The position numbers and the translations under genes were made by a program. 64,000 bases of DNA, taken from the NCBI GenBank assembly GCA_964621395.1, contig CAZULS010000002.1, positions 87,306 to 151,305 on the forward strand, read 5' to 3'. Shown here piece by piece: positions 27,707 to 63,662 of the stretch (position 1 is the first letter of the stretch; every line of letters starts with the position of its first letter). The notes beneath the pieces were generated by a model. That model made no database searches. It was given only the letters and a program-made list of their open reading frames with translations, and was not told the origin of the DNA. The stretch comes from an uncultured Candidatus Saccharibacteria bacterium (GTDB lineage: Bacteria; Patescibacteriota; Minisyncoccia; Phycocordibacterales; JACNGX01).

Positions 27707-27740
27707 TCGTTTAGCGTTTATAGTTCATCGTTCACTCACG

Positions 27741-29054: not shown

Positions 29055-29070
29055 GAAGAGAAAATTAATT

Positions 29071-29257
29071 AGAGCCTGTTCGTAATCTCATGTCGTGCGT
29101 AATGCATCATATACCGAGCGAAAATCGTGAAAAGTGTTGATGGAGTACTGTCGTACTTCGAGACACTTTAAGCGATTTACAGCCGGTATATGGCGCATTA
29201 AGCCGACAAGGACATGTTCTTCTTCGTTCAATTCCGTTGAGATTATGAACAGGCTCT
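29071..29257. mobile_element. MITE family D copy 1 (~187 bp, 20 bp perfect TIRs AGAGCCTGTTCGTAATCTCA / TGAGATTATGAACAGGCTCT)
   Basis: The internal sequence carries a second inverted repeat TATACCGAGCGAAAATCG / CGATTTACAGCCGGTATA. Tandem copy at 29325..29512, third copy at 58698..58884, degenerate inverted copy at ~49497..49725. Confidence 0.7.
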
Positions 29258-29324
29258 TAGATGACACACTCAGTATATATGAGAATACCGATTGACTGAA
29301 AGTTTTTTTTGTTCTCTGACTTTA

Positions 29325-29512
29325 AGAGCCTGTTCACAATCTCATGTCGTGCGTGACACACTCATATACCGAGCGAAAATCGTGAAAAGTGTCGAAGGAG
29401 TACTGTCGTACTTCGAGACGCTTTGAGCGATTTGCAGCCGGTATATGAGTGTGTCAGCCGGCAAGGATATATCTTTCTTTCTCCTATTCCGTTGAGATTG
29501 TGAACAGGCTCT
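29325..29512. mobile_element. MITE family D copy 2
   Basis: ~85-90% identical to copy 1, with the same TIRs AGAGCCTGTTCACAATCTCA / TGAGATTGTGAACAGGCTCT. Confidence 0.7.
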
Positions 29513-29570
29513 AAGAGGAGAAAAAAGTGAGCGCGGCGGGGCAAAGCCCCGCCGCGCTAAGTGGTAAAAT

Positions 29571-31163: not shown

Positions 31164-31173
31164 AAAACACACC

Positions 31174-33110: not shown

Positions 33111-33155
33111 AAAACGCAACGACACCGAAGGCATGCTTCGGTGTCGGCGTTATTG

Positions 33156-33227
33156 TGACCCTACGGGGAATCGAACCCCGGTTTTATCCGTGAGAGGGAT
33201 ACGTCCTAGCCGCTAGACGATAGGGCC
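33156..33227 (-). tRNA. tRNA-Glu (anticodon CTC)
   Basis: Minus strand GGCCCTATCGTCTAGCGGCTAGGACGTATCCCTCTCACGGATAAAACCGGGGTTCGATTCCCCGTAGGGTCA. 3-bp D stem typical of tRNA-Glu, anticodon loop CTCTCAC, T-loop TTCGATT. Confidence 0.8.
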
Positions 33228-34161: not shown

Positions 34162-34272
34162 GGGTACAAAGTACGAATATATACGAACATACGAAGATAG
34201 GGTTGTTTCGGAAAATGAATTGCAGGGTATACATTGTGTTCGTATGTTCGTACTCGTTCGTAGTTCGTAACC
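34162..34272. repeat. A-family element (GGGTACAAAGTACGAATATATACGAACATACGAAG ... TTCGTATGTTCGTACTCGTTCGTAGTTCGTAACC)
   Basis: Same architecture as 6275..6362, with a longer central spacer. Nearly identical to 36041..36152. Confidence 0.65.
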
Positions 34273-36040: not shown

Positions 36041-36152
36041 GGGGTACGAAGTACGAACGTGTACGAACATACGAAGATTGAGTTGTTTCGGAAAATGAAT
36101 TGCAGGGTATACATTGTGTTCGTATGTTCGTATTTATTCGTAGTTCGTAATA
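36041..36152. repeat. A-family element, near-duplicate of 34162..34272
   Basis: GGGGGTACGAAGTACGAACGTGTACGAACATACGAAG...TTCGTATGTTCGTATTTATTCGTAGTTCGTAATAACC. Confidence 0.65.
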
Positions 36153-37562: not shown

Positions 37563-38180
37563 TTACTCCACAAAGGGGACAAACATGTATCCGGGATGTT
37601 CGTGCCGTTCTACTTCGCCGTTCTCATGCTTTATGAGAAGGACGATTGTGTCTTTCACAGGCGCGACGATATGTCCGCCCGGAGCGAGCTGCTCTATCCA
37701 GAAAGCAGGGATGTCTTCCGGGAGTTCAGCCGCGCAGATAATCCTCTGAAATGGTGCCTCCTCAGGTAAACCTTCTTGAGCGCTTTTTTCATGAATAGTC
37801 ACTCTTCCGTCGCTTAAAAAACCGTAGGATTCAATCGCTTTCTTTGACATGTTCGCAAGCTCGGAAACGATTTCCATACCGTGCACATGTCCCTTTTCAC
37901 CGACGATATGTCCGAGGAGTGCACTTTGCCATCCCGATCCAGAGCCGACATCAAGAACAGTGTCGCCCAGCTGCGCCTTGAGAAGCTCAAGCATAAAGAC
38001 GACGGTTTCCGGCTGGGAAATGGTTTGTCCGTAGCCGATTGAAAGAGGGTAGTTTTGGTATGCTTCAAGGCGTTTTTCTTTCGGTACGAATCGTGCACGG
38101 TCAATTGCACGTAAAGCACCCTCAATACGCGGATCGGTGAGAATATTTCGTTCTTTGAGTTGGAGAAGGAGGTGTTCCAT
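37563..38180 (-). CDS. pcm: protein-L-isoaspartate O-methyltransferase
   Basis: GYGQTISQP and VLDVGSGSGWQSALL SAM-binding motifs. Confidence 0.85.
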   Translation of the reverse strand: MEHLLLQLKERNILTDPRIEGALRAIDRARFVPKEKRLEAYQNYPLSIGYGQTISQPETVVFMLELLKAQLGDTVLDVGSGSGWQSALLGHIVGEKGHVHGMEIVSELANMSKKAIESYGFLSDGRVTIHEKSAQEGLPEEAPFQRIICAAELPEDIPAFWIEQLAPGGHIVAPVKDTIVLLIKHENGEVERHEHPGYMFVPFVE

Positions 38181-38184
38181 ATAA

Positions 38185-38300
38185 GCGAATTACGAATCTG
38201 TACGAATATACGAATTACGAATACTTCATTTGTTGTCATTCCGGCCTCTGAGCCGGAATCCAGAGAGTTGTTTCATTACTCACTTCTGCCTGGACCGAGC
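38185..38300. repeat. A-left arm + B-family hairpins
   Basis: GCGAATTACGAATCTGTACGAATATACGAATTACGAATACT followed by GTCATTCCGGCCTCTGAGCCGGAATC. Confidence 0.55.
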
Positions 38301-38797: not shown

Positions 38798-38926
38798 TGT
38801 CATCCCCCACTCCGTGCCGAGCACTTTTTTCGCTTTGGCGAAAATGGTGCTTGGTGATGCGGGATCTAAGTAGAAGTAAGTGGTTGTTTTGATTTTTAGA
38901 TTCCCGTTCAAGCCGGGAATGACAGC
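38798..38926. repeat. B-family element (GTCATCCCCCACTCCGTGCCGAGCAC...GGTGCTTGGTGATGCGGGATC and GATTCCCGTTCAAGCCGGGAATGACAG)
   Basis: Shares its internal sequence with the 17312 and 18200 copies. Confidence 0.55.
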
Positions 38927-38988
38927 TGATGGATTGATTATTGGGTCATTGGATTTTATTTGTGATTTGGTGCTTGCGATTTGGGATT

Positions 38989-46635: not shown

Positions 46636-47112
46636 TTAAGACCTCACGTGATATTTTTTGTTCAGGAACTCAAAGATGTCACCCTCTTTTTCTTCAAGCG
46701 TGCTTGGGTAGATCTCTGTGTTGTCAGGAGGATCAAGCCCCGGAGAGCGCTTTTTTCCTTTCATGCCGAAGATAGTAATTGTGTCTGAAATGTACATGTC
46801 GAGAGATTTGCGCCCTTTCTTTTCTCCGATAGAAACAAGGATTAAGTTAGAGGACCCCGGTCCGCTAGCCTCAAAGGAGAATGCAATGGGGATGTTATTG
46901 GTATCTGCCCATGATTGGAGATTACCAATAAACTTTCCGAAATAACGAAATGCATCGACGCATTTTTCGAGGTCTTCGGCGAGTTCTTCAAATGCATCTT
47001 CCAGAATTTCCCTCTCTGCCTTTTTATATTTTTCATATTCTTCTTTTAGCGCATCTTGCGCAGTGGAGAGGATAAAACCATCAACCTCTTTCAATGTTTT
47101 TTCTGTACCCAT
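46636..47112 (-). CDS. hypothetical protein (158 aa)
   Basis: Acidic helical N-terminal half with no recognisable family. A bidirectional terminator lies at ~46578..46625. Confidence 0.45.
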   Translation of the reverse strand: MGTEKTLKEVDGFILSTAQDALKEEYEKYKKAEREILEDAFEELAEDLEKCVDAFRYFGKFIGNLQSWADTNNIPIAFSFEASGPGSSNLILVSIGEKKGRKSLDMYISDTITIFGMKGKKRSPGLDPPDNTEIYPSTLEEKEGDIFEFLNKKYHVRS

Positions 47113-47278
47113 GGTATCATCTTTATTTTTGTTTAACCCAAAACACTATGTTTCGAGCAAAATACTGCTGATTACATATTATGGAATATATTGTTTTTGT
47201 CAAGCCCGCTTCGCTAAAGCTCTGCAGGGAGGGATGCGGACTATGATTCTTGTTTCGTAATTCTTCATTCTTGATTCT

Positions 47279-47354
47279 GAAAGAAATAATGCAAGCGCAG
47301 ATGTGATTTTTGCAATGTTGCAAAAATCACATCTGCGCTTGCATTATTTCTTTC
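47279..47354. promoter_or_regulatory. Perfect 37 bp inverted repeat (76 bp palindrome) GAAAGAAATAATGCAAGCGCAGATGTGATTTTTGCAA / TTGCAAAAATCACATCTGCGCTTGCATTATTTCTTTC, overlapping the infA promoter
   Basis: The right arm contains the -35 TTGCAT (47339..47344), followed by N16 and TATGAT (47361..47366), with the infA ATG at 47381. It lies in the divergent region between the 47112 and 47381 gene starts. Confidence 0.55.
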
Positions 47355-47380
47355 ATGTGCTATGATATGCGCCAATCGTA

Positions 47381-47599
47381 ATGGCACACGACGTTTCAGA
47401 ACAGAATACCGTGCAGGGCACCGTTTTGGAGTCGCTTCCGAATACGGAGTTTCGCGTCACGCTTGATTCGGGCGAGGAGACAATCGCCTTTTTGTCAGGA
47501 AAGATGCGGCTTCACCGTATCAAGGTGCTTGTGGGGGATCGAGTTGCTATGGTGGTTGATCCCTACGGTGGTAAAGCGCGTATCATGCGCCGTCTCTAA
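47381..47599 (+). CDS. infA: translation initiation factor IF-1
   Basis: S1-like OB fold, sequence [14 protein letters not shown]...GKMR...[10 protein letters not shown]. Confidence 0.9.
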
Positions 47600-47600
47600 T

Positions 47601-47714
47601 ATGAAAGTTAAAGCATCAGTCAAAAAAATCTGTTCGAAGTGTAAGACCGTCCGAAGAAAGGGACGTGTGTGGGTGGTGTGTGAAAATACTCGCCACAAAC
47701 AGCGCCAAGGCTAA
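47601..47714 (+). CDS. rpmJ: 50S ribosomal protein L36
   Basis: [37 protein letters not shown]. Zinc-ribbon CxxC...CxxxxH. Confidence 0.85.
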
Positions 47715-47785
47715 ATATTTTTTTAATTTCCTCATTCTTAATCTCCCATTCTATTTTCTAACTCCTAATTTCTAACTTCTAAACT

Positions 47786-48163
47786 ATGCGAATCGCAGGT
47801 ATTACCATTCCAGAAGACAAGCGTATCGAAATCGGACTCACCGCTGTATATGGTGTCGGTCGTTCTCTTGCGCACGATATTCTCGACGAAGCAAAAGTTG
47901 AGTATGGTGCAAAGCCGAAAGATCTTTCCGAAGCACAGCAGTCAGCTATTCGCGATATTGTGACGGCACTAACCATCGAAGGTGATCTCAAGCGGGAAAC
48001 GGCGTCGAATGTAAAGCGCTTGAAGGATATCCAGTGTTATCGCGGTTCACGCCACGGACAGGGTTTACCGACTCGCGGTCAGCGCACAAAGACGAATGCC
48101 CGCACACGTAAAGGTCCGCGCAAGACGATGGGTTCCGGTAAGAAAAAGGTTGAGAAGAAGTAA
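47786..48163 (+). CDS. rpsM: 30S ribosomal protein S13
   Basis: MRIAGITIPEDKRIEIGLTAVYGVGR. Preceded by the TTCTAACTCCTAATTTCTAACTTCTAAACT (family J) array. Confidence 0.9.
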   Translation: MRIAGITIPEDKRIEIGLTAVYGVGRSLAHDILDEAKVEYGAKPKDLSEAQQSAIRDIVTALTIEGDLKRETASNVKRLKDIQCYRGSRHGQGLPTRGQRTKTNARTRKGPRKTMGSGKKKVEKK

Positions 48164-48190
48164 TATTCATGCTAGCATATTGGCTTGTAT

Positions 48191-48392
48191 AGTAAGAATC
48201 TTTCTTAGTAAAAATGGCTTGTTATCGCGCCCGACATGTGAGCGAGACGACGATGCGGAGTGTAAGGTATATAGACATATGACGCACGCGAGCATCAAGT
48301 CGCAGCCACATGTCGGGCGCGAGAACTGCCAAGCAACAGCTTTTGCGTTTATTATTTTTTATTTTGCGGTTTTTACTAAGATAGATTCTTGA
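48191..48392. repeat. Family E ~200 nt long-hairpin element, copy 1 (outer arms AGTAAGAATCTTTCTTAGTAAAA / TTTTACTAAGATAGATTCTTGA; inner perfect stem GCGCCCGACATGTG / CACATGTCGGGCGC)
   Basis: It occupies almost the whole rpsM-rpsK spacer. The core AATGGCTTGTTNTCGCGCCC is shared with copy 2. Confidence 0.6.
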
Positions 48393-48396
48393 TCCT

Positions 48397-48831
48397 ATGG
48401 GAAAAAAACGTGTCGCACAAAAGAAGGGAGGTACTGTTGACGCTGGGCTCCGCGCCCGCGCTCTTTCACGTGCGCCAAAGAAAAAGGTTGCCTCCGGTAT
48501 TCTCTGTGTGGAAGCAACATACAACAACACTCGCTTGACCCTCACTGATAAGGCGGGAAAAGTCTTGGCATGGAGCTCTTCCGGTGCCCTTGGATTCAAT
48601 GGTGCCAAAAAGGGAACACCGTTTGCCGCGGCAAAGATTGGTGAAGTGATCGCCGAGAAAGCGCTTATGATGGGTATGAAGGATGTATCGGTTGTGGTGA
48701 AAGGTGTTGGCATGGGACGTGAATCAGGCATTCGAGCATTTGCCGGAAAAGGTATCGACATCACAGCAATTTCCGATCGCACACCGGTACCGCATAATGG
48801 CCCGACACCGCGTAAGCCTCGTCGTGTATAA
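48397..48831 (+). CDS. rpsK: 30S ribosomal protein S11
   Basis: GILCVEATYNNTRLTLTD...GFNGAKKGTPFAA. Confidence 0.9.
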   Translation: MGKKRVAQKKGGTVDAGLRARALSRAPKKKVASGILCVEATYNNTRLTLTDKAGKVLAWSSSGALGFNGAKKGTPFAAAKIGEVIAEKALMMGMKDVSVVVKGVGMGRESGIRAFAGKGIDITAISDRTPVPHNGPTPRKPRRV

Positions 48832-48854
48832 TCCAGTATTTCAATTTCAGTATT

Positions 48855-49487
48855 ATGATGACCAATAGCAAATGTAAAATCTGTCGCCGTGCCGGTGAGA
48901 AGCTCTTCCTGAAAGGGGAGAAGTGTTTGACTGCAAAATGTACGCTTGTGAAAAAGCCGTATACTCCCGGACTGGCACAATCACAGCGTAAGCACCGCTC
49001 GATGGTGACTGAATTCGGTCGCCAGCTTAAAGATAAGCAGAAGGTGCGCAATATGTATGGCATGCGCGAGCGTCAGTTTGTGAATTATGTGCGCGAAGCA
49101 ATGAAGAAAGCGGGTAGTCCTGCAGAGAATCTTTTCGTGCTCCTTGAATCACGCGTGGACAATGTGGTCTTCCGCAGTGGCTTTGCCAATTCACGCTCAC
49201 TTGCTCGTCAGATGGTATCGCACGGACACATTACCGTAAATGGTCGCAAGATTGATATTCCATCATACACAATGAAGAAAGGGGATGTTATCGGTGTGCG
49301 CGAAGGAAGTATGAAGAGCCCGCTCTTTACCGATCTCGGGAAGAAGCTTGAGAAGCATTCTGCGCCGGTATGGGTGAAGCTTGACCCGAAGAAGGTACAC
49401 GCTGAGGTGATTGGCGCTCCGAAACTTGAAGAAGCGACGGATGCGGGTATTGATTTGCCGACAGTGATCGGGTTCTACAGTCGATAA
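48855..49487 (+). CDS. rpsD: 30S ribosomal protein S4
   Basis: N-terminal zinc-finger-like region CKICRRAGEKLFLKGEKC and an S4 domain. Confidence 0.9.
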   Translation: MMTNSKCKICRRAGEKLFLKGEKCLTAKCTLVKKPYTPGLAQSQRKHRSMVTEFGRQLKDKQKVRNMYGMRERQFVNYVREAMKKAGSPAENLFVLLESRVDNVVFRSGFANSRSLARQMVSHGHITVNGRKIDIPSYTMKKGDVIGVREGSMKSPLFTDLGKKLEKHSAPVWVKLDPKKVHAEVIGAPKLEEATDAGIDLPTVIGFYSR

Positions 49488-49496
49488 GCTATCCAC

Positions 49497-49725
49497 AGAG
49501 CCTGAAAAAGTGTTGCCTTTTCGAGAGTTTTGTGTTACACTTAGAATCTAATCAAGATTTCAACGCAAGAGGATAAAAATCCATGTTGCTTGCCGGCTGA
49601 AATGCCCATATCCCGGCTGCAAATCGTTCAAAGCGTCTCGAAGTACGACAGTACTCCTTCAACACTTTTCACGATTTTCGCTCGAGATATGAGCATTTCA
49701 CGCTCGACATGAAATCTTGCTCAGA
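49497..49725. mobile_element. Degenerate, inverted copy of MITE family D
   Basis: CCGGCTGCAAATCGTTCAAAGCGTCTCGAAGTACGACAGTACTCCTTCAACACTTTTCACGATTTTCGCTCG is the reverse complement of the family-D core. The termini are eroded. Confidence 0.5.
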
Positions 49726-49771
49726 TCCTTGTGTACGCGAAACGTAATCGCTGTTTTTCGTTTTATTCAAA

Positions 49772-49964
49772 GAACCGGTCTCACTGAAAATGGCTTGTTC
49801 TCGCGCCCACACTGCGAGCGAACCGACGTCGCGGAGACCATAACGTACTGTTTGTACGTTATGGTTGAGCGACAAGGTGCAGCCGCAGTGTGGGCGCGAG
49901 AACGGCGCATGCGCAGCTCCGGAATAAAATCTTCTTGTTTGAAGGTTTTCAGTGAGATTGGTTC
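49772..49964. repeat. Family E long-hairpin element, copy 2 (outer arms GAACCGGTCTCACTGAAAA / TTTTCAGTGAGATTGGTTC; inner stem CTCGCGCCCACACTGCG / CGCAGTGTGGGCGCGAG)
   Basis: The arms differ from copy 1 but remain perfectly self-complementary, i.e. compensatory change. It lies in the rpsD-rpoA spacer. Confidence 0.6.
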
Positions 49965-50044
49965 TATAAGTCGTTCAACCGACCGACACACATTTCTGTG
50001 TCGGTCGCGGTGGCGTATTTTATTATATTTTAAGCCCCATTTTT

Positions 50045-51013
50045 ATGCTAGATCACAGCGTCGTCCTCCCTTCCTCCCCACGTGTCGTATCCGAAGATGC
50101 GACAAAAGGCATCTATGAGATTGATGGTCTCTACACCGGATACGGACACACTCTCGGAAATTCGCTTCGTCGAATTATTCTTTCTTCGCTTCCCGGTTTT
50201 GCTATTACGTCGGTGAAAATCGCCGGTGTTCCGCATGAATTTTCCACCATTGATGGCGTCAAAGAAGACGTGATTGCATTGTTGCTCAATCTCAAAAAAG
50301 TACGATTGGCATTTGATGGAAGTGAATCACAGACATTTACCTGCACCCTGAAGGGTCCGAAGCCGGTAACAGCCGGCGATTTGAGCGTGCCGTCTCAGGT
50401 GCGTGTACTCAATCCCGAGCAGCACATTGCCGAGCTGACCGCTAAGGGTTCGTCTCTTGAAATTGAAATCACCGTGGAGAAAGGGCTCGGCTATGTTGCC
50501 AAAGAAGTGCATGCCGGCGGGAAGAACGATGTGGGTGTGATTGCGCTTGATGCAACGTTCACTCCGATTCGCCGTGCCAACTACGAAGTGGAAAACATGC
50601 GTGTTGGTGATCGTACCGATTACAATCGTTTGCGCATGGTGATTGAAACAGACGGCACACTCACACCGCGCGAAGCACTCGAGCGTTCCATTGTGGTGAT
50701 GATTGAGCAATTGAAAGCGATTGTTGGCTTCCAGGAAGAGGAACCGGAGGAAGAAGTTGCTGATGCACCGGAAGAGGGAGCTGAGGAAGAAAAAGGCGAG
50801 ACCGATGCAGATGCTTTGAAAACGCGCATCGAGTCTCTCGAAGAGCTTTCCAGCCGTACATCCAATGCGCTGCTGGAGGCAAGTATTCGCACCGTGGGCG
50901 GACTTGTGCGCAAGAGTGAAGAAGACCTTCTTGCTCTTGAGGGCGTGGGAGATAAGAGTGTGCAGGAAATTCGTCGCGCACTCGCAAACTTCGGCTTGAC
51001 TCTGAAGCAATAA
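50045..51013 (+). CDS. rpoA: DNA-directed RNA polymerase subunit alpha
   Basis: N-terminal dimerisation domain, acidic linker and C-terminal helix-hairpin-helix (LEELSSRTSNALLEASIRTVGGL). Confidence 0.9.
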   Translation: MLDHSVVLPSSPRVVSEDATKGIYEIDGLYTGYGHTLGNSLRRIILSSLPGFAITSVKIAGVPHEFSTIDGVKEDVIALLLNLKKVRLAFDGSESQTFTCTLKGPKPVTAGDLSVPSQVRVLNPEQHIAELTAKGSSLEIEITVEKGLGYVAKEVHAGGKNDVGVIALDATFTPIRRANYEVENMRVGDRTDYNRLRMVIETDGTLTPREALERSIVVMIEQLKAIVGFQEEEPEEEVADAPEEGAEEEKGETDADALKTRIESLEELSSRTSNALLEASIRTVGGLVRKSEEDLLALEGVGDKSVQEIRRALANFGLTLKQ

Positions 51014-51023
51014 TCCGTATACT

Positions 51024-51218
51024 GGAACCCACCTCATATTAAAACGCCAGAGAAAGGACTCACGCACTTCGTGCAACGGCTTGACAGTTCTCGCACCACA
51101 TATTCGGCTGCACCTTGTCTCTCAACCGCACCGCACGAGTAGTGCGGCACGGTCTCCGAGACATCTACGCTGCGAATATGTGACACGAGAACAAGTCATT
51201 TAATATGAGGCGGGTTCC
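51024..51218. repeat. Family F ~195 nt long-hairpin element, copy 1 (outer arms GGAACCCACCTCATATTAAA / TTTAATATGAGGCGGGTTCC)
   Basis: It fills the rpoA-rplQ spacer. Internal CACATATTCGGCTGCA...CCGCACGAGTAGTGCGG...GAATATGTG. The homolog is at 57418..57600. Confidence 0.6.
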
Positions 51219-51236
51219 GGAGCCTATTCCTAATGT

Positions 51237-51587
51237 ATGAAACATCACAGCAAACATCGAACACTTGGACGCGATAATGATCAGCGTAAAGCACTTTTGA
51301 AAGGCTTGGCTGTGTCTCTTGTGCGTGATGAAAAGATTATGACTACGGAAGCAAAGGCAAAGGAGCTCCGTCCGTTTATCGAAAAGCTCATTACACGTGC
51401 ATCAAAGGGAGATGTGGCTGCACGTCGTTTGCTCGTGTCACGCGTTGGCTCTGAGATTACTGCAGAGAAGCTCATGAAGGAGATTGCTCCGCGCTACGAA
51501 AACCGCGCCGGTGGATACACCCGTATTACCAAGATTGCTCCACGCAGCGGTGACGCAAGTCCGATGGCTGTTATTGAATTTGTATAA
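51237..51587 (+). CDS. rplQ: 50S ribosomal protein L17
   Basis: [24 protein letters not shown]. Confidence 0.9.
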
Positions 51588-51934: not shown

Positions 51935-51939
51935 TCAAC

Positions 51940-51975
51940 GGGTACGAAGTACGAACCAATACGAACATACGAATA
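51940..51975. repeat. A-family left half-element GGGTACGAAGTACGAACCAATACGAACATACGAATAC (solo)
   Basis: Immediately after the rplM stop. There is no matching right arm. Confidence 0.55.
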
Positions 51976-52074
51976 CAGTGTTTAAGAAGTATTCACGTGT
52001 ATCGTTTTTCATACCACAGACGACAGCAATAGTTTCAGTTTAACGTCTATAGTTTATCGTTTTTATTTACTTTC

Positions 52075-54586: not shown

Positions 54587-54827
54587 TGAGGGGTCGTCTG
54601 CCCGCGCGTGCACTGCGTATTCCATGCGCAGTGCACGCGCGGGCAAGTGATTGGATTTGAAACGAGACTTGCCAAGACCCAGCCCCACACCAATGATTTT
54701 GAGAGCTTATATTCTTGCCAGTACCGTTATGTTGCTGAGGAGAATGTTCTCTTTATGAAATCAAAAGTGTGGGGCTGGGTGACAACTTCTTTTTATCGTT
54801 AACAGTTAATCGTTTATTGTTACACTT

Positions 54828-56868: not shown

Positions 56869-57093
56869 TGTCATCCCGCACTTGATGCGGGATCTCGAGA
56901 GAGTTGTTTCTTGACGTTTAGATCCAGCCCCACTTTCACTGATTAGTTTATATGGCTATTTTAAGATAGACGAAGTTTCTAACTTGCTTTAAAGAATAAT
57001 TTAATCAGTGAAAGTGGGGCTGGATGACAGCAAAAGAGAATAGCGAAGCAAAAGTCCTATTCGTATGTCCGTACATCTTCGTACTTCGTACCC
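56869..57093. repeat. B-family element (GTGTCATCCCGCACTTGATGCGGGATC ... CAGTGAAAGTGGGGCTGGATGACAGC) followed by A-family right half TTCGTATGTCCGTACATCTTCGTACTTCGTACCC
   Basis: The same B + A-right arrangement precedes trpS (62141..62277) and aspS (63488..63602). Confidence 0.6.
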
Positions 57094-57155
57094 CTTTTTG
57101 TATTTCAGGAAAAATATGATATGCTCATGCCAGAATTTTTTGTAACTTTAGCTTT

Positions 57156-57578
57156 GTGTCCATGCATATTGATTATGTTACGGTGCTGTTCTATTGCTTC
57201 CTCTGGCCCCTCCTCATCGGAGAGCTTTTTCTTTTTACCAGAAAAGATGAGGCTGTGATATGGCGACTTCGTATCGCTCTCGCAATTGTACTCCTCGTAG
57301 GAGTAGTCATGTATTCCTATTTCATGACGCCACCGGATGAGCTGCCGGCTCGTTTTCTTGTATCGCTCTTGGTCTTCACTAAGGGCGTTTTTTTGTGTAT
57401 ACTATGTAGAGCCTCTTTCATATTAAACCGCCAAAATGGTATTTTCACACTTTCGTATGAATGCTTGGCAATTCTCGCACACCATATTCGGCTGCATCTT
57501 GTTGCTCAACAGCACCGCACGAAAGTGCGGCGCAGTCTCCGCAACATCGGTTCGCACGAATATGCTGCACGAGCATAA
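57156..57578 (+). CDS. hypothetical membrane protein (questionable; C-terminal third is translated through family-F repeat)
   Basis: The N-terminal 100 aa are hydrophobic. The last ~50 codons coincide with repeat F copy 2. Confidence 0.3.
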
Positions 57579-57600
57579 GCCATTTAATCTGAAAGAGACT
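57418..57600. repeat. Family F long-hairpin element, copy 2
   Basis: TCATATTAAACCGCC...TTCTCGCACACCATATTCGGCTGCATC...CACCGCACGAAAGTGCGGCG...CGAATATGCTGCACGAGCATAAGCCATTTAATCTG is homologous to 51024..51218. The inner hairpin loop is GAAA here versus GAGTA there. Confidence 0.6.
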
Positions 57601-57606
57601 CTATCT

Positions 57607-58677
57607 ATGAGCAAAGACTATTACGGTATTTTGGGTGTCGAAAAGAATGCATCCAAAGACGATATCAAGAAGGCGTTTCGCAAGCTCGCGCATAAATATC
57701 ATCCCGATAAGAAGGAAGGGGATGAGTCGAAATTCAAAGAAGTGAATGAGGCCTATCAAATTCTCTCCGACGAAAAGAAGCGCGCGGAGTATGATACCTA
57801 TGGGCAAACATTCGGTGGTGCCGGCGGTGGATACGGTGATTTCGGCGGCTTTGGTGGATTTGGCGGTGCACAAGGTGCCGGCGTGGAGTTTGATGTCGGC
57901 GATATCTTCAATCAATTTTTTGGCGGTCAGGGTGGCGGCATGGGACGTGAGCGTCGAGGTCGCGACATGTCGATTGATATTGAGGTGTCGTTTAAAGATG
58001 CTGTCTTTGGAACAAAACGCTCAATCCTTCTCACCAAGATGGGCGTGTGTGATGATTGCGGGGGCACGGGTGCTAAGAAAGGTTCGGGAATGAAAACATG
58101 TGAAGCATGTAATGGCCAAGGGAAAGTGCATGAGGCACGGAAGTCTCCCTTTGGAACATTTTCGGTGACACGTGTGTGTGAGGCATGCGGCGGTACGGGA
58201 GAAGTGCCCAAGGAGGTGTGTGCGACATGTAAAGGGCAAGGCGTACTCCATAAGCGTGAAGAGGTGAACATTCGTATTCCGGCAGGAATCGGAAGCGGTG
58301 AAATGATTCGCATCACCGGTGGCGGCGAGGCGATTCCAAAAGGCACGGCAGGTGATTTGTATATCAAGGTGCATGTGACACCTGATGAGCAATTTTCACG
58401 CGAGGGCAATAACATCATCATGAAGCTGCCGATTAAGCTCTCCGAAGCGCTCTTGGGAGCAACGCGCGGTATTGATACACTCGACGGCTCGATCGATCTT
58501 TCGATTCCTCCGGGAGCGCATCACGGTGAGAAATTGCGTGTGCGTGGCAAAGGTGTGCCGACGGGCGACGGAGAGCGGAGGGGTGATTTGCTCGTTCTTC
58601 TTTCCATTGAAATGCCGAAGAAATTATCACGCACGGCAAAAAAGCTTGTTGAAGAATTGCAGCAAGAAGGTATTTAA
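57607..58677 (+). CDS. dnaJ: molecular chaperone DnaJ
   Basis: J domain with HPD (YHPDKK), G/F-rich linker, and four CxxCxGxG zinc-finger repeats. Confidence 0.9.
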
Positions 58678-58697
58678 TCGATCAATTTTTCTTTCTT

Positions 58698-58884
58698 AGA
58701 GTCTGTTCACAATCTCATGTCGTGCGTGATATGCCCATATGCCGAGCGAAAATCGTGAAAAACGGTGATGGAGTACTCTCGTACTTTGAGACGTTTTGAG
58801 CGATTTGCAGCCGGTATATGGGCATATCAGCCGACAAGGACAATTTTTATTCATTCAATTCCGTTGAGATTATGAACAGGCTCT
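58698..58884. mobile_element. MITE family D copy 3 (TIRs AGAGTCTGTTCACAATCTCA / TGAGATTATGAACAGGCTCT)
   Basis: ~85% identical to 29071..29257. Its right TIR supplies the in-frame ATG at 58872 upstream of the acyltransferase gene. Confidence 0.7.
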
Positions 58885-58889
58885 TACAT

Positions 58890-60488
58890 ATGAAACAGCG
58901 TCTCAAAGACGTGTGGTGGACCGTTATTCCATGGATACTCCAAACAATCGTGTGGATTCCCGCGCAGATTATTCTGCACTTCTTCCTTCGCCTTCGTGTA
59001 GAAGGATATAAACGGATCAAGCACATTCGCGGACCGGTTATTTTCGTATCCAATCATACAAGCTACTGGGATCCGATTATGATTCCGGCGGCGTTGCCAC
59101 TCTTTTCTCGATTTTTCCCAATGATGTATGTGGCACGTGAGCGCAATTATTACAGACGTGCCAAACACTTTATCGGTGCGACATCGTTTAAGGTATGGGG
59201 GGCGCATCCGGCACACGGCGGACTGTGTGATTATGCTCGCTCACTCGATGACCATGAACGGTTTCTAAACCAAGGAAGAAGTGTGTGCATGTTTCCTGAA
59301 GGGACGCTACCGGAAGAGGAAGACAGCATCCAACCTTTCAAAGGAGGCATTGGCTATTTGGTATGTCATACAAAAGCAACGATTATTCCTGTCTCCATTA
59401 CAGGGATGTTTTCTGTAACAGCAAAAGATTTCTTCAGCAGGAAACGTCGTGCCACACTCACATTCGGCGAGCCGCTTACCAACAACCCGCTCTGCGTCGT
59501 TGCCAAGGGGGAAACACCCGATGTGGAGTGTTACAAAAAAACCGCCGAAAAGATTAGAGAAGAATTAAGCGTTCTTTTTTCAATTGGTTACAATACGATG
59601 CACGATTATCTTCCCGAACAAGAATATCATCATGCTTTCGCTAGACCATTTCGCGCTATTGGTCGTTTTATACTCAATCATTTACATCTTGTTCCGGGTA
59701 TGAATAATATAGCGCGAAAGACAAACAGAGGCGCGCGAGAAGTACTGGAGAACAAAACAACGCACCAGGCCCTGGAAGTGCTGTATCGGAAAGGGGACAC
59801 AGGGAAAAAAGAAACATTTCTGGGAAACATATTTCGTTCACTATGGTTTTTTACCGACAATGCGAAAGGAGTCAGAAACCGTCTTAGAATTGTAAAAAAT
59901 GGAATTGTGAGAGAGCTCGTAAACATTCATAGCGATGAATGTCACAATAATACTGTGCACATGCTCAGTATTGCGTCTGGATCGGCGCGCGCGGTGCTGG
60001 AAGCGATACAGCGAGCAAGAGAAATGAATGTCGAAAAGGACATTCATGTAACCTTTTTAGATAAAAGTCCTCAGGCAATTTCATACAGTCGCACATTGGC
60101 ACAATCGGTATGTGATGAAGATGTTCTCAAAAAAACACACATGCAATGGGTGACTGACACTGCAAGCAATTTTACAAAGTACGCAGATGAGGGGTCTTTA
60201 GATATTATTGAAATGGTCGGCCTGCTTGACTACTTCGATGACGAAAAAGCGCAACGTCTTTTTGAAAAAGCGTACCGCTACTTACGTTCAGGAGGCGTGT
60301 TCATTACTGCCAATATTGACTATAATAAAGAGTATGCATTCGTGAACAACTTTGTCGATTGGCGTATGATATATCGTTCATCGCACGAGTTAGCAGCGTT
60401 AGCGCGTCGTGCTGGCTTTAATGCACAGTACATGCGCGTATATACAGAACCTCTCGGAGTTCACAATGTGCTCATCGTGAGGAAATAA
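58890..60488 (+). CDS. fusion protein: N-terminal 1-acyl-sn-glycerol-3-phosphate acyltransferase-like (PlsC/LPLAT) domain + C-terminal class I SAM-dependent methyltransferase-like domain
   Basis: HxxxxD box NHTSYWD and the FPEGT box in the first ~200 aa. The C-terminal ~200 aa have Rossmann-like methyltransferase motifs (SIASGSARAVLE, FLDKSPQAI, DIIEMVGLLDY, LRSGGVFITAN). Confidence 0.55.
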   Translation: MKQRLKDVWWTVIPWILQTIVWIPAQIILHFFLRLRVEGYKRIKHIRGPVIFVSNHTSYWDPIMIPAALPLFSRFFPMMYVARERNYYRRAKHFIGATSFKVWGAHPAHGGLCDYARSLDDHERFLNQGRSVCMFPEGTLPEEEDSIQPFKGGIGYLVCHTKATIIPVSITGMFSVTAKDFFSRKRRATLTFGEPLTNNPLCVVAKGETPDVECYKKTAEKIREELSVLFSIGYNTMHDYLPEQEYHHAFARPFRAIGRFILNHLHLVPGMNNIARKTNRGAREVLENKTTHQALEVLYRKGDTGKKETFLGNIFRSLWFFTDNAKGVRNRLRIVKNGIVRELVNIHSDECHNNTVHMLSIASGSARAVLEAIQRAREMNVEKDIHVTFLDKSPQAISYSRTLAQSVCDEDVLKKTHMQWVTDTASNFTKYADEGSLDIIEMVGLLDYFDDEKAQRLFEKAYRYLRSGGVFITANIDYNKEYAFVNNFVDWRMIYRSSHELAALARRAGFNAQYMRVYTEPLGVHNVLIVRK

Positions 60489-60503
60489 GCCGAAAGTTTT
60501 AAT

Positions 60504-62129
60504 ATGTTAGACTATCAAGTTATTTCATTATTTGCTGTAGCGATTATCAGCGCCTTGTTTAGTTATGTCATTTCAGGGAAAAGAGGAGAAAAAAGTAAAC
60601 GAACGGAGACCACTCTTTTCTCGCTCATAGCTATTTTCATCGGTCTGTGGGCACTCAATATATCGTTCTTTATACAGCAACAATATGGTGACTTTACGTT
60701 TCTCTTTGTGAACGCATATTATGTGTCAGCGGCGTTTATTCCTCTCCTCTTTTTCTATTTTGCCGTTTCATATGTCAACGATAAACATATAAAGCTCGTC
60801 CATAATGTTATTTGCGCCCTCCCACTCCTTTTTCTTATTGGTGCATTGTTGGTTGATCCCTATTTCCTTATTACGTCGATTACTCCTCAAAACAGTGGTG
60901 TCACATTTAATATTCCCGTATACATTGCATATTCGGCTTATTTTTTTGTTTTTATTGTTTGGACATACAGTTTACTTGTCTACGCATTTGTAAAGGAGAA
61001 AAATACCATACAGCGCGTACAATTGAAACTGATTATCATAGGAACCCTTGTTTCGTTTTTATTGGGGCTATTTTTTAATCTCATTCTTCCGTGGTTTAAC
61101 ATTTATGAACACATATGGCTTGGACCAGTCTTTTCTTTAATCTTCGTGTTTTCAATGGGGTATGCAATTATCCGTCACAACCTTTTCAACATAAAAGTCG
61201 TCACGACAAAAATATTGGTATTCGGCCTACTTTTTTTCATTTTTGTTCGATTTCTCATTGCGGAAAATCTTGAGAATAAAATAACAGAAAGTGTACTCTT
61301 TCTTGTCACAACAATTGCCGGATTGTTTATTATACGAAATGTGATGCAGGAAATTCAGGTGCGTGAAGAGGCAGAGAAACTTGCTGAGCAGCTTCGAAAG
61401 GCGAACGCGCGGTTACGAGAGCTAGATCGGCAAAAGTCGGAGTTTGTTTCTATTGCTTCGCATCAATTGCGGACACCGCTCACTGCCATTAAAGGTTATT
61501 CATCCATGCTTTTGGATGGTTCGTTTGGAAAAATGTGTAAGGGAAGTGTCGAGCCGGTGGAGAAAATTTATCGTTCGTCGCAGCGGCTTGTGGGTGTCGT
61601 GGAAGATTTTCTCAATGTGACTCGCATTGAGCAAGGGAGGATGAGTTATGATTTCCGACCGGTCGATATGCACCATATCTGTGAGAATGTTGTGGAAGAA
61701 CTTTCGTTTGGGGCAAAAGACAAAGGATTGGATTTGATATTCAAATGCGGAAAGCCCGGGGCAATCGTGTCGGCTGACCAAGGGAAAATTCGTCAGGTTG
61801 CGCTCAATCTCGTGGACAATGCGGTGAAATACACCGAGAAAGGGGAGGTAGAGGTGTGTTTGAGAGATGACGATCCGAAACACGTTGTCTTTGAAGTGGT
61901 TGACACCGGTATCGGTATCCCCGAAGAATTTAAAAAGCGCATGTTTGAAAAATTTAGTCGTGCCGATAATAGCGGTGCGTATCACGCCAACGGCTCCGGT
62001 ATCGGTTTGTATATTGTAAAAGAAATTGTTGAAGCACATAAAGGGACAGTCAGCGTTGATTCAAAAGAAGGGAAGGGTGCGACATTTACCGTCACATTGC
62101 CGCGTGTGAAGGAGGAGACGAAAGGGTAA
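60504..62129 (+). CDS. sensor histidine kinase with multi-TM N-terminal sensor domain
   Basis: ~7 TM helices, coiled-coil linker, HisKA H-box SIASHQLRTPL and HATPase_c N/G1/G2 boxes (DNAVKYT, DTGIGI, GSGIGL). No response regulator is adjacent. Confidence 0.8.
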   Translation: MLDYQVISLFAVAIISALFSYVISGKRGEKSKRTETTLFSLIAIFIGLWALNISFFIQQQYGDFTFLFVNAYYVSAAFIPLLFFYFAVSYVNDKHIKLVHNVICALPLLFLIGALLVDPYFLITSITPQNSGVTFNIPVYIAYSAYFFVFIVWTYSLLVYAFVKEKNTIQRVQLKLIIIGTLVSFLLGLFFNLILPWFNIYEHIWLGPVFSLIFVFSMGYAIIRHNLFNIKVVTTKILVFGLLFFIFVRFLIAENLENKITESVLFLVTTIAGLFIIRNVMQEIQVREEAEKLAEQLRKANARLRELDRQKSEFVSIASHQLRTPLTAIKGYSSMLLDGSFGKMCKGSVEPVEKIYRSSQRLVGVVEDFLNVTRIEQGRMSYDFRPVDMHHICENVVEELSFGAKDKGLDLIFKCGKPGAIVSADQGKIRQVALNLVDNAVKYTEKGEVEVCLRDDDPKHVVFEVVDTGIGIPEEFKKRMFEKFSRADNSGAYHANGSGIGLYIVKEIVEAHKGTVSVDSKEGKGATFTVTLPRVKEETKG

Positions 62130-62140
62130 ACAGAGCTCTT

Positions 62141-62277
62141 TTGTCATCCCGCACTTGATGCGGGGTCTAAGCGTTACGAAACAACTCTTTCGAGATCCCG
62201 CATCAAGTGCGGGATGACAGGAAAAGAGAGTATTAAGAGCCTGTTCGTATGTTCGTACTGTTTTGTACTTCGTACCC
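62141..62277. repeat. B-family MITE-like element (75 bp, TIRs TGTCATCCCGCACTTGATGCGGGGTCT / AGATCCCGCATCAAGTGCGGGATGACA) + AGAGCCTGTTCG + A-family right half
   Basis: The TTG that starts the predicted trpS ORF lies inside the A repeat. The real start is 62314. Confidence 0.65.
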
Positions 62278-62313
62278 CTCCCGAAAATTGTGTTTTGTGA
62301 TATAGTGGTGTCT

Positions 62314-63309: not shown

Positions 63310-63602
63310 GTTACGAACTACGAATAATGCGAATATACGAATATAGTTTATATCAAGCAATACACGTGTTATCCTGGACTCTTGCCGAGCTCGACTTTCA
63401 CTGAATAAGCAAAAATATCAAAAACGATAGAAGAAAGAATAAAAAGTGTGTCACCAGAAATGCTTGTTGGTGAAAGTGAGGCTCTGGTGATTCAGGATCT
63501 CAAAAAGTGAAGATTCCGCATCAAGTGCGGAATGACAGTAAAGGTGGGTAATGGTATAGAAGATGTCTTCGTATGTTCGTATAACTTCGTACTTCGTACC
63601 CG
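63310..63602. repeat. Composite A-left arm (GTTACGAACTACGAATAATGCGAATATACGAATATAG), truncated B hairpins, A-right arm (TTCGTATGTTCGTATAACTTCGTACTTCGTACCC)
   Basis: It fills the trpS-aspS spacer. Confidence 0.6.
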
Positions 63603-63662
63603 AAGAGAGTTATTGAGCTGCATACATAGTAATATTATTGTTTCGACATCATTTAATTTCCT

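What the first reader, a model, noticed from the sequence alone, without database searches (positions are those of the whole stretch)
48191..49964. Family E: ~200 nt long-hairpin elements in r-protein operon spacers that differ in arm sequence between copies yet each remain perfectly self-complementary
Two elements (48191..48392 between rpsM and rpsK; 49772..49964 between rpsD and rpoA) share a core (AAATGGCTTGTTNTCGCGCCC ... GGGCGCGAGAAC). Each forms a nested hairpin. The paired arms differ between copies (GACATGTG/CACATGTC versus CACACTGCG/CGCAGTGTG; outer arms TCTTAGTAAAA/TTTTACTAAGA versus CTCACTGAAAA/TTTTCAGTGAG), but within each copy the two arms remain perfectly self-complementary (compensatory change). 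That pattern is what one expects of a selected RNA structure (e.g. RNase III processing sites, attenuators or r-protein autoregulatory leaders inside a polycistronic operon), or of palindromes kept palindromic by intrastrand gene conversion. It is not what identical-copy MITE TIRs look like.
Basis: seen in the sequence. Interest (0 to 1): 0.62.

Follow-up and report, generated by a model that had tools for sequence, protein, structure and literature searches.

The report
Mobile hairpin repeats in ribosomal operon
The two long hairpins are real, but they are copies of a roughly 195-base mobile repeat that recently inserted into this candidate-phyla bacterium's ribosomal-protein operon and elsewhere, not conserved regulatory leaders of that operon.

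Summary
Both elements exist at the stated coordinates, fold far better than shuffles (z -8.5 and -11.2), and differ in arm sequence while staying paired. The window has four family-E copies (two on the minus strand) and four copies of a sister family X, which shares the architecture and a 68-69 nt core.

Seven related lineages (88-97% RpoA or 95% DnaJ identity) have short, empty spacers where E1, E2, E3, E4, X2 and X3 sit. The insertions show no target-site duplication. Copies lie in both orientations relative to host genes, and further copies occur at unrelated loci in two other genomes. The elements are therefore lineage-specific insertions, not conserved operon leaders.

The fold is nevertheless under selection. 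35 of 69 pairs covary, length is constant (187-204 nt), purine-rich internal loops are conserved, and G.U pairs strongly outnumber A.C on one element strand whatever the host orientation.

Best reading: a new non-autonomous hairpin element, similar in kind to REPINs or MITEs, that acts as a folded single strand. The mobilising enzyme is unknown. It meets the defining features of no named family.

The parts
48194..48390 (+). E1, family-E hairpin element (197 nt) between rpsM (47786-48163) and rpsK (48397-48831). P1 arms 48194-48215 / 48369-48390; P2 arms 48216-48240 / 48307-48330; core 48241-48306; unpaired 3' linker 48331-48368.
   Evidence: Absent from the orthologous spacer (76-88 nt) in L153, L155, L151, L161 and L162.
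49771..49965 (+). E2, family-E element (195 nt) in the rpsD-rpoA spacer. P1 arms 49771-49791 / 49945-49965; P2 arms 49792-49816 / 49884-49907; core 49817-49883; 3' linker 49908-49944.
   Evidence: It is a clean insertion relative to L153, where the empty site reads ...CGTATTATT|ATAGTCGTTC....
51024..51218 (-). E3, family-E element (195 nt) between rpoA (50045-51013) and rplQ (51237-51587), antisense to the operon. Core 51107-51172.
   Evidence: CM R1 gives 32.8 bits, E 1e-5. Fold, alignment. Absent in L153, L155, L161 and L162. L151 carries only a 42-nt hairpin equal to E3's outer stem at this site.
57407..57603 (-). E4, family-E element (197 nt) ending 3 nt upstream of the dnaJ start codon (ATG at 57607), antisense to dnaJ. 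Core 57491-57556.
   Evidence: CM R1 gives 44.8 bits.. The empty site in L165 (DnaJ 95% identical) reads GTGTACACTATTCTTATGAGC.
49543..49729 (-). X3, sister-family element (187 nt) in the same rpsD-rpoA spacer, antisense to the operon. It is inserted in the loop of a small pre-existing hairpin (GTGTTACAC-TC-GTGTAACAC in L153).
   Evidence: (128.6 bits).
29069..29259 (+). X4, sister-family element, in tandem with X1 between hisS (27741-29054, -) and the signal peptidase gene (29571-30233, -).
   Evidence: (110.8 bits).
29323..29514 (+). X1, sister-family element.
   Evidence: (132.8 bits).
58696..58886 (+). X2, sister-family element between dnaJ (ends 58677) and the acyltransferase gene. Relatives have a spacer of 12-34 nt here.
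   Evidence: (125.8 bits).

Best explanation
Family E and its sister family X form a non-autonomous, dispersed mobile element of about 195 nt.

**Architecture.** Each copy folds into a Y-shaped long hairpin with these parts:
- An outer stem P1 of about 21 bp, formed by the two termini, which begin (T)AGARYC.
- A second stem P2, whose inner 8-10 bp vary freely but compensate.
- A 66-69 nt core with three purine-rich internal loops. The first is invariant: G-C, bulged A, GC/GC, then GA opposite GCA.
- An unpaired 3' linker of about 38 nt that carries a small hairpin.

**Shown**
- The copies are recent, lineage-specific insertions into intergenic spacers, without target-site duplication.
- They lie in either orientation.
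- Family-E insertions tend to sit at or just after TATA(C/G)T hexamers that look like -10 promoter boxes.
- The fold is conserved by compensatory change and by a strand-specific excess of G.U (G.T) pairs.

**Inferred**
- The element is recognised and moved as a folded single strand, most likely ssDNA.
- The enzyme acts in trans, is encoded outside this window, and is not a DDE transposase.
- An HUH/Y1-type enzyme, as for REPIN-RAYT and IS200/IS605, is the best guess.
- Once inserted in an operon, the element is co-transcribed as a long RNA hairpin. It could incidentally serve as an RNase III or mRNA-stability site, but that is a by-product, not its reason for being there.
For: **Multiple dispersed copies**
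- The window holds 4 E and 4 X copies.
- E5 lies in an unrelated metagenome contig next to an L25 gene.
- E6 and X5 lie in a relative's scaffold at loci that are not orthologous to the window copies.

**Empty sites in close relatives**
- E1, E2, X3 and E3.
- E4 and X2.

**No target-site duplication**
- Removing the hairpin restores the empty-site length to within +1, +1, -1 and 0 nt for E2, X3, E3 and E4.

**No conservation elsewhere**
- CM R1 finds nothing in 80 GTDB-species loci, where spacers are short.

**Structure under selection**
- 35 of 69 pairs have double changes. 91.4% of cells are paired against 76.8% in shuffles and 30-47% in slid controls.
- Length stays at 187-204 nt despite 62-78% identity among E copies.

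**Single-strand polarity**
- G.U versus A.C is 33:16 in E (p = 0.02) and 32:2 in X (p = 7e-8).
- The sense strand is more stable than the antisense strand in 10 of 11 copies, with both RNA and DNA parameters.
- This holds although 5 of 8 window copies are antisense to the neighbouring genes and GC skew does not switch across the window.

**Common origin of E and X**
- They share the blocks GAGCGAA, GTACTGT..GTAC, TTGAGCGA and GCAGCC at the same spacing.

**Target preference**
- A TAnnnT hexamer lies within 0-3 nt of an end in 5 of 11 copies, against 9.4% at random positions. In 4 of 6 E copies the hexamer is TATA[CG]T.

**Assembly behaviour**
- Independent short-read contigs are identical to the window and break inside these repeats.
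Against: - No transposase, reverse transcriptase or other mobilising gene was found in the 64-kb window or next to E5. The rest of the genome could not be read.
- Copies within the window are 22-38% diverged from one another, so no recent burst from a single master is visible.
- E1 is not a clean insertion. About 41 nt of the ancestral spacer are missing.
- The orientation split on one replichore (5:3) does not fit the strict lagging-strand bias known for IS608-type ssDNA transposition.
- The TATAST adjacency lies on either side of the element, was noticed post hoc, and could reflect which positions are tolerated in very short spacers.
- ssDNA cannot be told apart from RNA with these data.
Confidence: 0.6

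Rival explanations
1. A structured RNA that spreads or acts as RNA. The sense transcript is the functional unit, for example a protein-binding small RNA with G.A-rich loops, or a SINE-like retro-mobile RNA copied back into DNA by a reverse transcriptase. The strand-specific G.U pairs would then reflect RNA folding.
For: - G.U pairs are conserved at the same columns in several diverged copies, for example columns 37-127 and 68-98.
- Tandem G.A-type internal loops and constant length are typical of protein-binding RNAs.
- There is no orientation bias and no target-site duplication.
- The RNA energy gap between sense and antisense is 8-32 kcal/mol.
Against: - There is no promoter signal above chance and no convincing terminator.
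- P1 pairs the extreme termini, so a self-promoted transcript would lack part of it.
- Five of eight copies are antisense to surrounding transcription.
- No Rfam family matches, even at E up to 10.
- No reverse transcriptase gene was seen.
- G.T pairs are also tolerated in ssDNA, and DNA parameters give the same polarity.
Confidence: 0.2
2. One reading: cis-acting RNA structures selected for the alpha operon, such as RNase III processing sites, attenuators or autoregulatory r-protein leaders.
For: - E1 and E2 are sense-oriented inside a polycistronic operon and fold very stably.
- Four of the eight E/X copies cluster in about 3 kb of this operon.
Against: - The elements are absent from the same spacers in six relatives at 88-97% RpoA identity and in 80 other species.
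- E3 and X3 are antisense in the same operon.
- The same family sits next to hisS, dnaJ, dnaK and an L25 gene.
- The Rfam alpha-operon leader model gives only 17.8 bits, at 47780-47815 and not at the elements.
Confidence: 0.05
3. Inert DNA palindromes kept palindromic by intrastrand (cruciform-templated) gene conversion or repair, with no selected fold.
For: Arms that differ between copies are exactly complementary within copies. The genome carries many other palindromic repeat families.
Against: - Conversion would erase, not preserve, the invariant asymmetric loops, the bulged A and the one-sided 38-nt linker.
- It would give Watson-Crick arms with no strand polarity, yet G.U exceeds A.C by 65 to 18.
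- It does not explain dispersal to new loci or the empty sites.
Confidence: 0.08
4. A classical DDE-transposase MITE (IS630/Tc1-like or similar) recognised as double-stranded terminal inverted repeats.
For: - Terminal inverted repeats share the consensus (T)AGARYC.
- The elements are about 195 nt with no ORF and lie in intergenic DNA.
- TA dinucleotides flank about half of the ends.
Against: - The four filled-versus-empty comparisons show no duplication.
- E3 has no flanking TA.
- Strand-specific G.U bias and conserved internal loops are not expected for a dsDNA-recognised element.
Confidence: 0.07

Closest known systems
REPINs (REP doublets forming hairpins) mobilised by RAYT/TnpA-REP Y1 transposases (Bertels & Rainey 2011, PMC3116915)
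   Same: - Non-autonomous and intergenic.
- Long hairpin predicted in ssDNA or mRNA.
- Compensatory changes across the hairpin are common (PMC3116915, read).
- Copies persist as diverged populations rather than as identical bursts.
- No classical target duplication.
   Different: - No REP units: the arms are not themselves short imperfect palindromes carrying a conserved tetranucleotide.
- The size is about 195 nt, against roughly 70-110 nt.
- There is a three-way junction with a conserved core.
- No RAYT gene was seen.
- The host is a Patescibacteria (Paceibacteria) genome, whereas REPINs are described mainly in Proteobacteria (the taxon range rests on my own knowledge).
IS200/IS605-derived palindrome-associated elements (PATEs) and IS608-type single-strand 'peel and paste' transposition (own knowledge)
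   Same: - Insertion without target-site duplication.
- Strand-specific hairpins with tolerated G.T pairs.
- Insertion adjacent to a short AT-rich motif.
   Different: - Those elements have separate left-end and right-end subterminal hairpins and no terminal inverted repeats. Here the two termini pair with each other around a single central core.
- The orientation of the flanking motif is not fixed.
- There is no lagging-strand orientation bias (5:3).
Classical bacterial MITEs that fold as RNA hairpins: Correia/NEMIS, ERIC/IRU, RUP and BOX (review: Delihas 2008, PMC2229807; details from own knowledge)
   Same: - 100-200 nt with terminal inverted repeats.
- Located in intergenic and intra-operon positions.
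- Co-transcribed into long hairpins that can be RNase III substrates.
- Found in either orientation.
   Different: - Those with known mechanisms duplicate a target (TA for Correia). No duplication is seen here.
- There is no sequence similarity.
- Here the core has invariant purine-rich loops and a strong one-strand G.U bias.
Alpha-operon S4 autoregulatory leader (Rfam RF00140)
   Same: It lies in the same operon and is an RNA structure.
   Different: - That leader sits upstream of rpsM, is a pseudoknot, and is conserved at one position.
- The elements here are in other spacers, are absent in relatives, and do not match the model.

Membership tests
REPIN / RAYT system | Two inverted REP units, each a short imperfect palindrome with a conserved 5' tetranucleotide, separated by a spacer | tested here: not met
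   The arms of E and X are not themselves REP-like palindromes. The conserved parts are the termini, the P2 base and a single central core.
REPIN / RAYT system | Long hairpin kept by compensatory changes | tested here: met
   35 of 69 pairs have double changes; 0 of 500 shuffles reach the observed values.
REPIN / RAYT system | A cognate single-copy Y1 (RAYT) gene flanked by the repeats | not testable with these tools
   None among the ORFs scanned in the 64-kb window. The other 230 kb of the source contig could not be fetched.
IS200/IS605-derived PATE | Insertion without target-site duplication | tested here: met
   Filled minus empty length beyond the hairpin is +1, +1, -1 and 0 nt for E2, X3, E3 and E4.
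IS200/IS605-derived PATE | Distinct subterminal left-end and right-end hairpins, and no terminal inverted repeats | tested here: not met
   The termini pair with each other over about 21 bp (P1), and there is a single central core.
IS200/IS605-derived PATE | Insertion 3' of a fixed tetra- or pentanucleotide in a fixed orientation, with lagging-strand orientation bias | tested here: inconclusive
   TATA[CG]T lies within 0-3 nt of an end in 4 of 6 E copies, but on either side. Orientation is 5:3 on one replichore.
DDE-type MITE (Correia, ERIC or IS630-like) | Terminal inverted repeats, small size, no ORF | tested here: met
   Termini (T)AGARYC...GRYTCT(A); 187-204 nt.
DDE-type MITE (Correia, ERIC or IS630-like) | Target-site duplication (TA or 2-9 bp) flanking each copy | tested here: not met
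   No duplication in the four filled-versus-empty comparisons. TA flanks only about half of the ends.
DDE-type MITE (Correia, ERIC or IS630-like) | A parent IS with the same termini | not testable with these tools
   None in the window.
r-protein operon autoregulatory leader or conserved processing site | Conserved at the orthologous position in related genomes, and in sense orientation | tested here: not met
   Absent in relatives at 88-97% RpoA identity and in 80 other species. E3 and X3 are antisense.
Any Rfam 15 family, including self-cleaving ribozymes, 6S and SRP RNA | Match to the covariance model | tested here: not met
   No hit on the elements at the gathering threshold, nor at E up to 10 over 47000-51300.

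The most novel reading that the evidence does not exclude
E and X would represent an undescribed class of mobile element in Patescibacteria. It would be a Y-shaped single-stranded element of about 195 nt whose invariant G.A-rich loops are the recognition site for an unknown non-DDE enzyme. It would insert without duplication into DNA melted at promoter -10 boxes (TATAST). Alternatively, it would be a SINE-like structured RNA that is retro-copied, which would be a bacterial first. In either case the freely covarying P2b stem next to the invariant loop could be a specificity or identity determinant.
Probability: 0.2. Interest if true: 0.75.

Novelty: new variant of a known kind. Interest (0 to 1): 0.45.

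Why it matters
- Candidate-phyla (Patescibacteria) genomes are small and are generally regarded as poor in mobile DNA (own knowledge). This one carries at least eight copies of a structured hairpin element in 64 kb, four of them inside the essential alpha (rpsM-rplQ) operon, in addition to several other repeat families. Close relatives have none at the same sites.
- The combination of insertion without duplication, an invariant asymmetric loop, constant length and a one-strand G.U bias gives a concrete handle for finding the enzyme that moves such elements.
- It also lets one ask whether promoter open complexes are the target.
- On the practical side, these repeats break short-read assemblies of such genomes. 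They also create spurious ORF calls: the 413-aa 'DnaJ' ORF, and the 83-aa gene called over E6.

Tried and rejected
1. **Rfam.** The scans at the gathering threshold and at E up to 10 gave nothing on the elements. Only microRNA-like hits appeared, on an unrelated perfect palindrome at 47278-47355.
2. **Pattern scans of collections.**
   - The metagenome scan gave 70 hits, of which only L101 is a true copy.
   - The viral scans gave two hits to the E pattern (not examined further) and none to the X pattern.
3. **Look-ups intended to extend the source contig.**
   - The exact RpsD look-up found nothing on record.
   - Look-ups with window-edge proteins and with P0001 returned only short Logan contigs that end in repeats.
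   - As a result, the genome could not be searched for a transposase.
4. **Pfam scan of window ORFs.** The roughly 40 ORFs scanned in the window, and the ORFs around E5, showed only housekeeping genes or no family match.
5. **Promoter and terminator scan.** It gave no excess of promoters (5 found, 5.1 expected) and no terminator at the elements.
6. **Mini-ORF.** A conserved ATG at the P1/P2 junction opens 13-25 codon ORFs in E1-E5 and in X1. I rejected this as coding for three reasons:
   - There is no Shine-Dalgarno sequence.
   - Substitutions preserve pairing rather than codons.
   - The peptides are dissimilar.
7. **Named RNA and DNA motifs, compared by eye.** None fits:
   - K-turn or box C/D: the loops are 2x2, 2x3 and 3x3, not a 3-nt bulge followed by G.A pairs.
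   - SRP domain IV: it shares the string GCAGCC, but in a different context.
   - Hammerhead, twister, hairpin and pistol ribozyme cores.
   - attC sites: the GTT and AAC boxes are in the wrong order.
   - TIGR arrays, which came up in a literature search: those are tandem units of another size.
8. **Nested-insertion idea.** I considered that the outer stem is a pre-existing host hairpin into which the core inserted. I rejected this because E5, at an unrelated locus, carries nearly the same outer stem as E3.
9. **IS630-type TA duplication.** It does not reproduce the observed junctions of E3 or E4.
10. **Literature searches.** Searches for repeat or MITE descriptions in Patescibacteria or Parcubacteria found none.
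Full report
**Observation**

The window region carries infA, rpmJ, rpsM (47786-48163), rpsK (48397-48831), rpsD (48855-49487), rpoA (50045-51013) and rplQ (51237-51587) on the + strand. The spacers are 233 nt (rpsM-rpsK), 557 nt (rpsD-rpoA) and 223 nt (rpoA-rplQ).

The two reported elements are present. They share the quoted core strings, which occur nowhere else in the window. Over about 250 columns including flanks they align at 77% mean column identity; the elements themselves are 71% identical. They fold at -95 and -128 kcal/mol, with z-scores of -8.5 and -11.2 against dinucleotide shuffles.

**The family is larger than reported**

The inner 68-69 nt, GAGCGA...GCAGCC, recurs at the same spacing in a second hairpin family, which I call X. 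A covariance model of stem P2 plus the core (R1) was run over the whole window with filters off. It recovered the following.

| Copy | Coordinates | Score (bits) |
|---|---|---|
| E1 | 48215-48332 (+) | 85.4 |
| E2 | 49791-49909 (+) | 85.2 |
| X1-X4 | four copies | 111-133 |
| E3 | rpoA-rplQ spacer (-) | 32.8 |
| E4 | directly upstream of dnaJ (-) | 44.8 |

The exact hairpin limits are listed in the parts section.

E and X share several sequence blocks: GAGCGAA, an apical GTACTGT..GTAC (in E2 and in X), TTGAGCGA and GCAGCC. They also share the same overall architecture, so they have a common origin.

**Anatomy**

- P1 is about 21 bp and is formed by the two termini, which begin (T)AGARYC.
- P2 is about 24 bp. 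Its outer part is conserved (GGCTTRTTCTCGYG / GYGCGAGAAYTGCC). Its inner 8-10 bp are free to vary.
- An invariant junction follows: G-C, a bulged A, GC/GC, then GA opposite GCA.
- Two further helices are separated by purine-rich loops. In X these are tandem G.A loops.
- There is an apical hairpin.
- On the 3' side only, a linker of about 38 nt is unpaired. In E3-E6 it carries a small CAC-GAA-GTG hairpin.
- Lengths are 187-204 nt, although E copies are only 62-78% identical to one another and X copies 78-91%.

**Is the fold selected?**

On six E copies (alignment A7), RNAalifold predicts 69 pairs, and 35 of them carry double compensatory changes.

| Measure | Observed | Shuffled | Slid partners |
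|---|---|---|---|
| Cells paired | 91.4% | 76.8% (0 of 500 shuffles reach the observed value) | 30-47% |
| Covariation score | 0.50 | 0.21 | 0.06-0.16 |

Any DNA palindrome would show compensation of this kind. The more telling result is polarity. On the strand where GAGCGA precedes GCAGCC, non-Watson-Crick positions are overwhelmingly G.U (G.T) rather than A.C. The counts are 33:16 in E (p = 0.02; 26:8 without the decayed copy E6) and 32:2 in X (p = 7e-8). That strand is more stable than its complement in 10 of 11 copies, by 8-32 kcal/mol with RNA parameters and by 3.5-16 kcal/mol with DNA parameters.

This polarity follows the element, not the host. E1, E2 and X2 are sense to the flanking genes, while E3, E4, X3, X1 and X4 are antisense. 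GC skew is positive across the whole window, so there is no replichore switch. Selection therefore acts on one single strand of the element.

**Is it a conserved operon feature? No.**

The organism is a Paceibacteria (Patescibacteria) bacterium. The nearest named hit is Candidatus Yonathbacteria, at 71% S4 identity.

In 80 species-level loci around rpsD, the model finds no copy. By eye from the per-locus table, the spacers there are mostly about 30 nt (rpsM-rpsK), 65 nt (rpsD-rpoA) and 30 nt (rpoA-rplQ).

Much closer relatives were found through RpoA, and their contigs were fetched.

| Locus | RpoA identity | rpsM-rpsK (nt) | rpsD-rpoA (nt) | rpoA-rplQ (nt) |
|---|---|---|---|---|
| L153, L154 | 97% | 76 | 167 | 46 |
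| L155, L156 | 96% | 80 | 170 | 47 |
| L151, L152 | 92% | 76 | 181 | 70 |
| L162 | 91% | 88 | 179 | 46 |
| L161 | 88% | 68 | 228 | 58 |
| window | - | 233 | 557 | 223 |

Alignments show that E2 and X3 are clean insertions relative to L153, with well-conserved flanks. E3 is an insertion between ...CCGTATACT and GGAG.... E1 is an insertion accompanied by the loss of about 41 nt of ancestral spacer.

A DnaJ search gave L165, at 95% identity. It has the empty E4 site: GTGTACACTATTCTTATGAGC, against GTGTATACTATG[E4]TCTATGAGC in the window. L164-L167 have 12-34 nt where X2 sits.

Conversely, copies exist at other loci in other genomes. E5 lies beside an L25 gene in a metagenome contig. E6 lies directly after the dnaK stop codon in L151, and X5 lies elsewhere in L151.

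**Insertion chemistry**

Removing just the hairpin restores the empty-site length to within +1 (E2), +1 (X3), -1 (E3) and 0 (E4) nt. There is therefore no target-site duplication, which argues against a DDE transposase.

Several insertion points abut -10-like hexamers:

- E1: TATAGT| (0 nt).
- E3: TATACT| (0 nt).
- E4: TATACTATG| (3 nt).
- X3: TACACTT| (1 nt).
- E5: TATAGTTT| on the other strand (2 nt).
- E2: inside what reads TATTATAGT in the empty site.

A TAnnnT hexamer within 0-3 nt of an end occurs in 5 of 11 copies, against 9.4% at random window positions. I noticed this pattern post hoc. It may reflect either a preference for melted or AT-rich promoter DNA, or simply which positions are tolerated in very short spacers. 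For dnaJ, the empty site looks like a promoter for a leaderless mRNA.

**Mechanism**

Three facts fit an element that is handled as a folded single strand by a non-DDE enzyme supplied in trans:

- insertion without a target-site duplication;
- strand-specific folding that is independent of host transcription;
- an invariant asymmetric loop.

REPIN-RAYT and IS200/IS605 are the known precedents. For REPINs, hairpins 'in ssDNA or mRNA' with common compensatory changes are documented (PMC3116915).

The enzyme was not found. The ORFs scanned in the window and around E5 are housekeeping genes or have no family match, and the rest of the genome was out of reach.

An RNA-level reading remains possible. 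In that reading the element is either a self-standing structured RNA or a retro-copied RNA. It is disfavoured for three reasons:

- there are no promoter or terminator signals;
- P1 pairs the extreme termini, so a self-promoted transcript would lack part of it;
- most copies are antisense to the surrounding transcription.

Pure gene conversion does not explain the polarity or the conserved loops. Once inserted in the operon, the hairpins will be transcribed and may well be cut by RNase III, but that cannot be their reason for existing.

**Comparison and novelty**

The elements behave like REPINs, PATEs and MITEs, but they fail defining features of each. They have no REP doublet. They lack the separate left-end and right-end hairpins of PATEs. 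They have no target duplication. They match no Rfam family. Literature searches found no description of such repeats in Patescibacteria. I class them as a new variant of a known kind, namely small non-autonomous hairpin repeats.

**Context**

This genome is unusually rich in short palindromic repeat families. Related Paceibacteria loci show 0-2 long inverted repeats per 7 kb.

Independent short-read contigs from run SRR8146440 are identical to the window and end inside these repeats. For example, L168 spans 49884-51108, from the E2 core/P2 junction to the E3 core/P2 junction. This rules out an assembly artefact in the window sequence and is consistent with multi-copy sequence.

Noticed in passing
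window 29069-29259, 29323-29514, 58696-58886 (+), 49543-49729 (-); L151:111-303: Sister family X has the same architecture and the same GAGCGA...GCAGCC core spacing as family E. Copies are 78-91% identical to one another. G.U versus A.C is 32:2. X4 and X1 lie in tandem between hisS and the signal peptidase gene.
   Followed up: yes
L151:10970-11015 (rpoA-rplQ spacer of a 92% relative): Exactly where E3 sits in the window, this relative has only a 42-nt hairpin (GGAACCCACCTC...GAGGTGGGTTCC). It equals E3's outer stem without the inner 150 nt. It is either an internally deleted relic or a mini variant. Relatives at 96-97% identity lack even this, which is at odds with the RpoA-based relatedness.
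   Followed up: partly
window 48331-48368 versus L153:847-922: E1 is not a simple insertion, because about 41 nt of the ancestral rpsM-rpsK spacer are missing. E1's 3' linker contains ATTTTTTATTTT, a 12-mer found only twice in the window and also present in the ancestral spacer of L153. This is either chance in T-rich DNA or a sign that part of the linker is captured host sequence.
   Followed up: partly
window 47786-51587: Four of the eight E/X copies lie within about 3 kb of the alpha operon, in three consecutive spacers. This could reflect local hopping, a preference for promoters of highly expressed genes, or tolerance of insertions there.
   Followed up: no
window 47278-47355: A perfect 38-bp palindrome with a 2-nt loop lies just upstream of infA. 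It draws spurious microRNA-precursor Rfam hits (up to 62.6 bits, below gathering) and is scored as a bidirectional terminator-like site.
   Followed up: no
window 1417-1447, 13536-13605, 15854-15894, 18291-18331, 19705-19735, 27124-27154, 27268-27308, 31058-31167, 38889-38929, 56869-56899, 62142-62224, 63502-63542: A REP-like 26-nt hairpin unit, TGTCATYCCGSACTTGATSCGGRATGACA, occurs about 15 times in both orientations, often as inverted doublets (for example 27123-27304 and 62142-62219).
   Followed up: no
window 6275-6369, 6728-6822, 7603-7630, 34162-34272, 36042-36150, 38180-38222, 51939-51981, 57056-57095, 62240-62279, 63564-63603: Another dispersed family is built on TACGAAGTACGAA...TTCGTATGTTCGTA inverted units. 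One copy sits between rplM and rpsI. At 62236 it abuts a solitary X-type terminus, AGAGCCTGTTC.
   Followed up: no
window 22403-22508 (next to tRNA-Asn 22360-22433) and 33082-33185 (next to tRNA-Glu 33155-33227): Long hairpins of about 100 nt have one arm that is the 3' part of a tRNA gene (T-arm and acceptor) and another arm that is an inverted copy of it. The two loci share similar inner stem-loops.
   Followed up: no
window 1518-1550, 2977-3026, 7736-7768, 11222-11266, 17217-17242, 27049-27085, 27701-27733, 30289-30334, 30979-31027, 52036-52069, 54790-54822: A periodic AAACGATAAACG / CGTTTATCGTTT motif recurs in many intergenic regions in both orientations. It may be an operator- or promoter-associated repeat.
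   Followed up: no
window 57436-58677; 58818-60488; L151:15598-15849: The repeats create misleading ORFs. The 413-aa 'DnaJ' ORF starts inside E4, whereas the true start is the ATG at 57607 ([11 protein letters not shown]). The 556-aa ORF starts inside X2. An 83-aa gene is called over E6 in L151.
   Followed up: partly
L168 = window 49884-51108; L159 = 1414-6304; L160 = 58858-62219: Short-read (Logan) contigs of run SRR8146440 are identical to the window and end inside repeat elements. L168 ends at the same structural position, the core/P2 junction, in both E2 and E3.
   Followed up: partly
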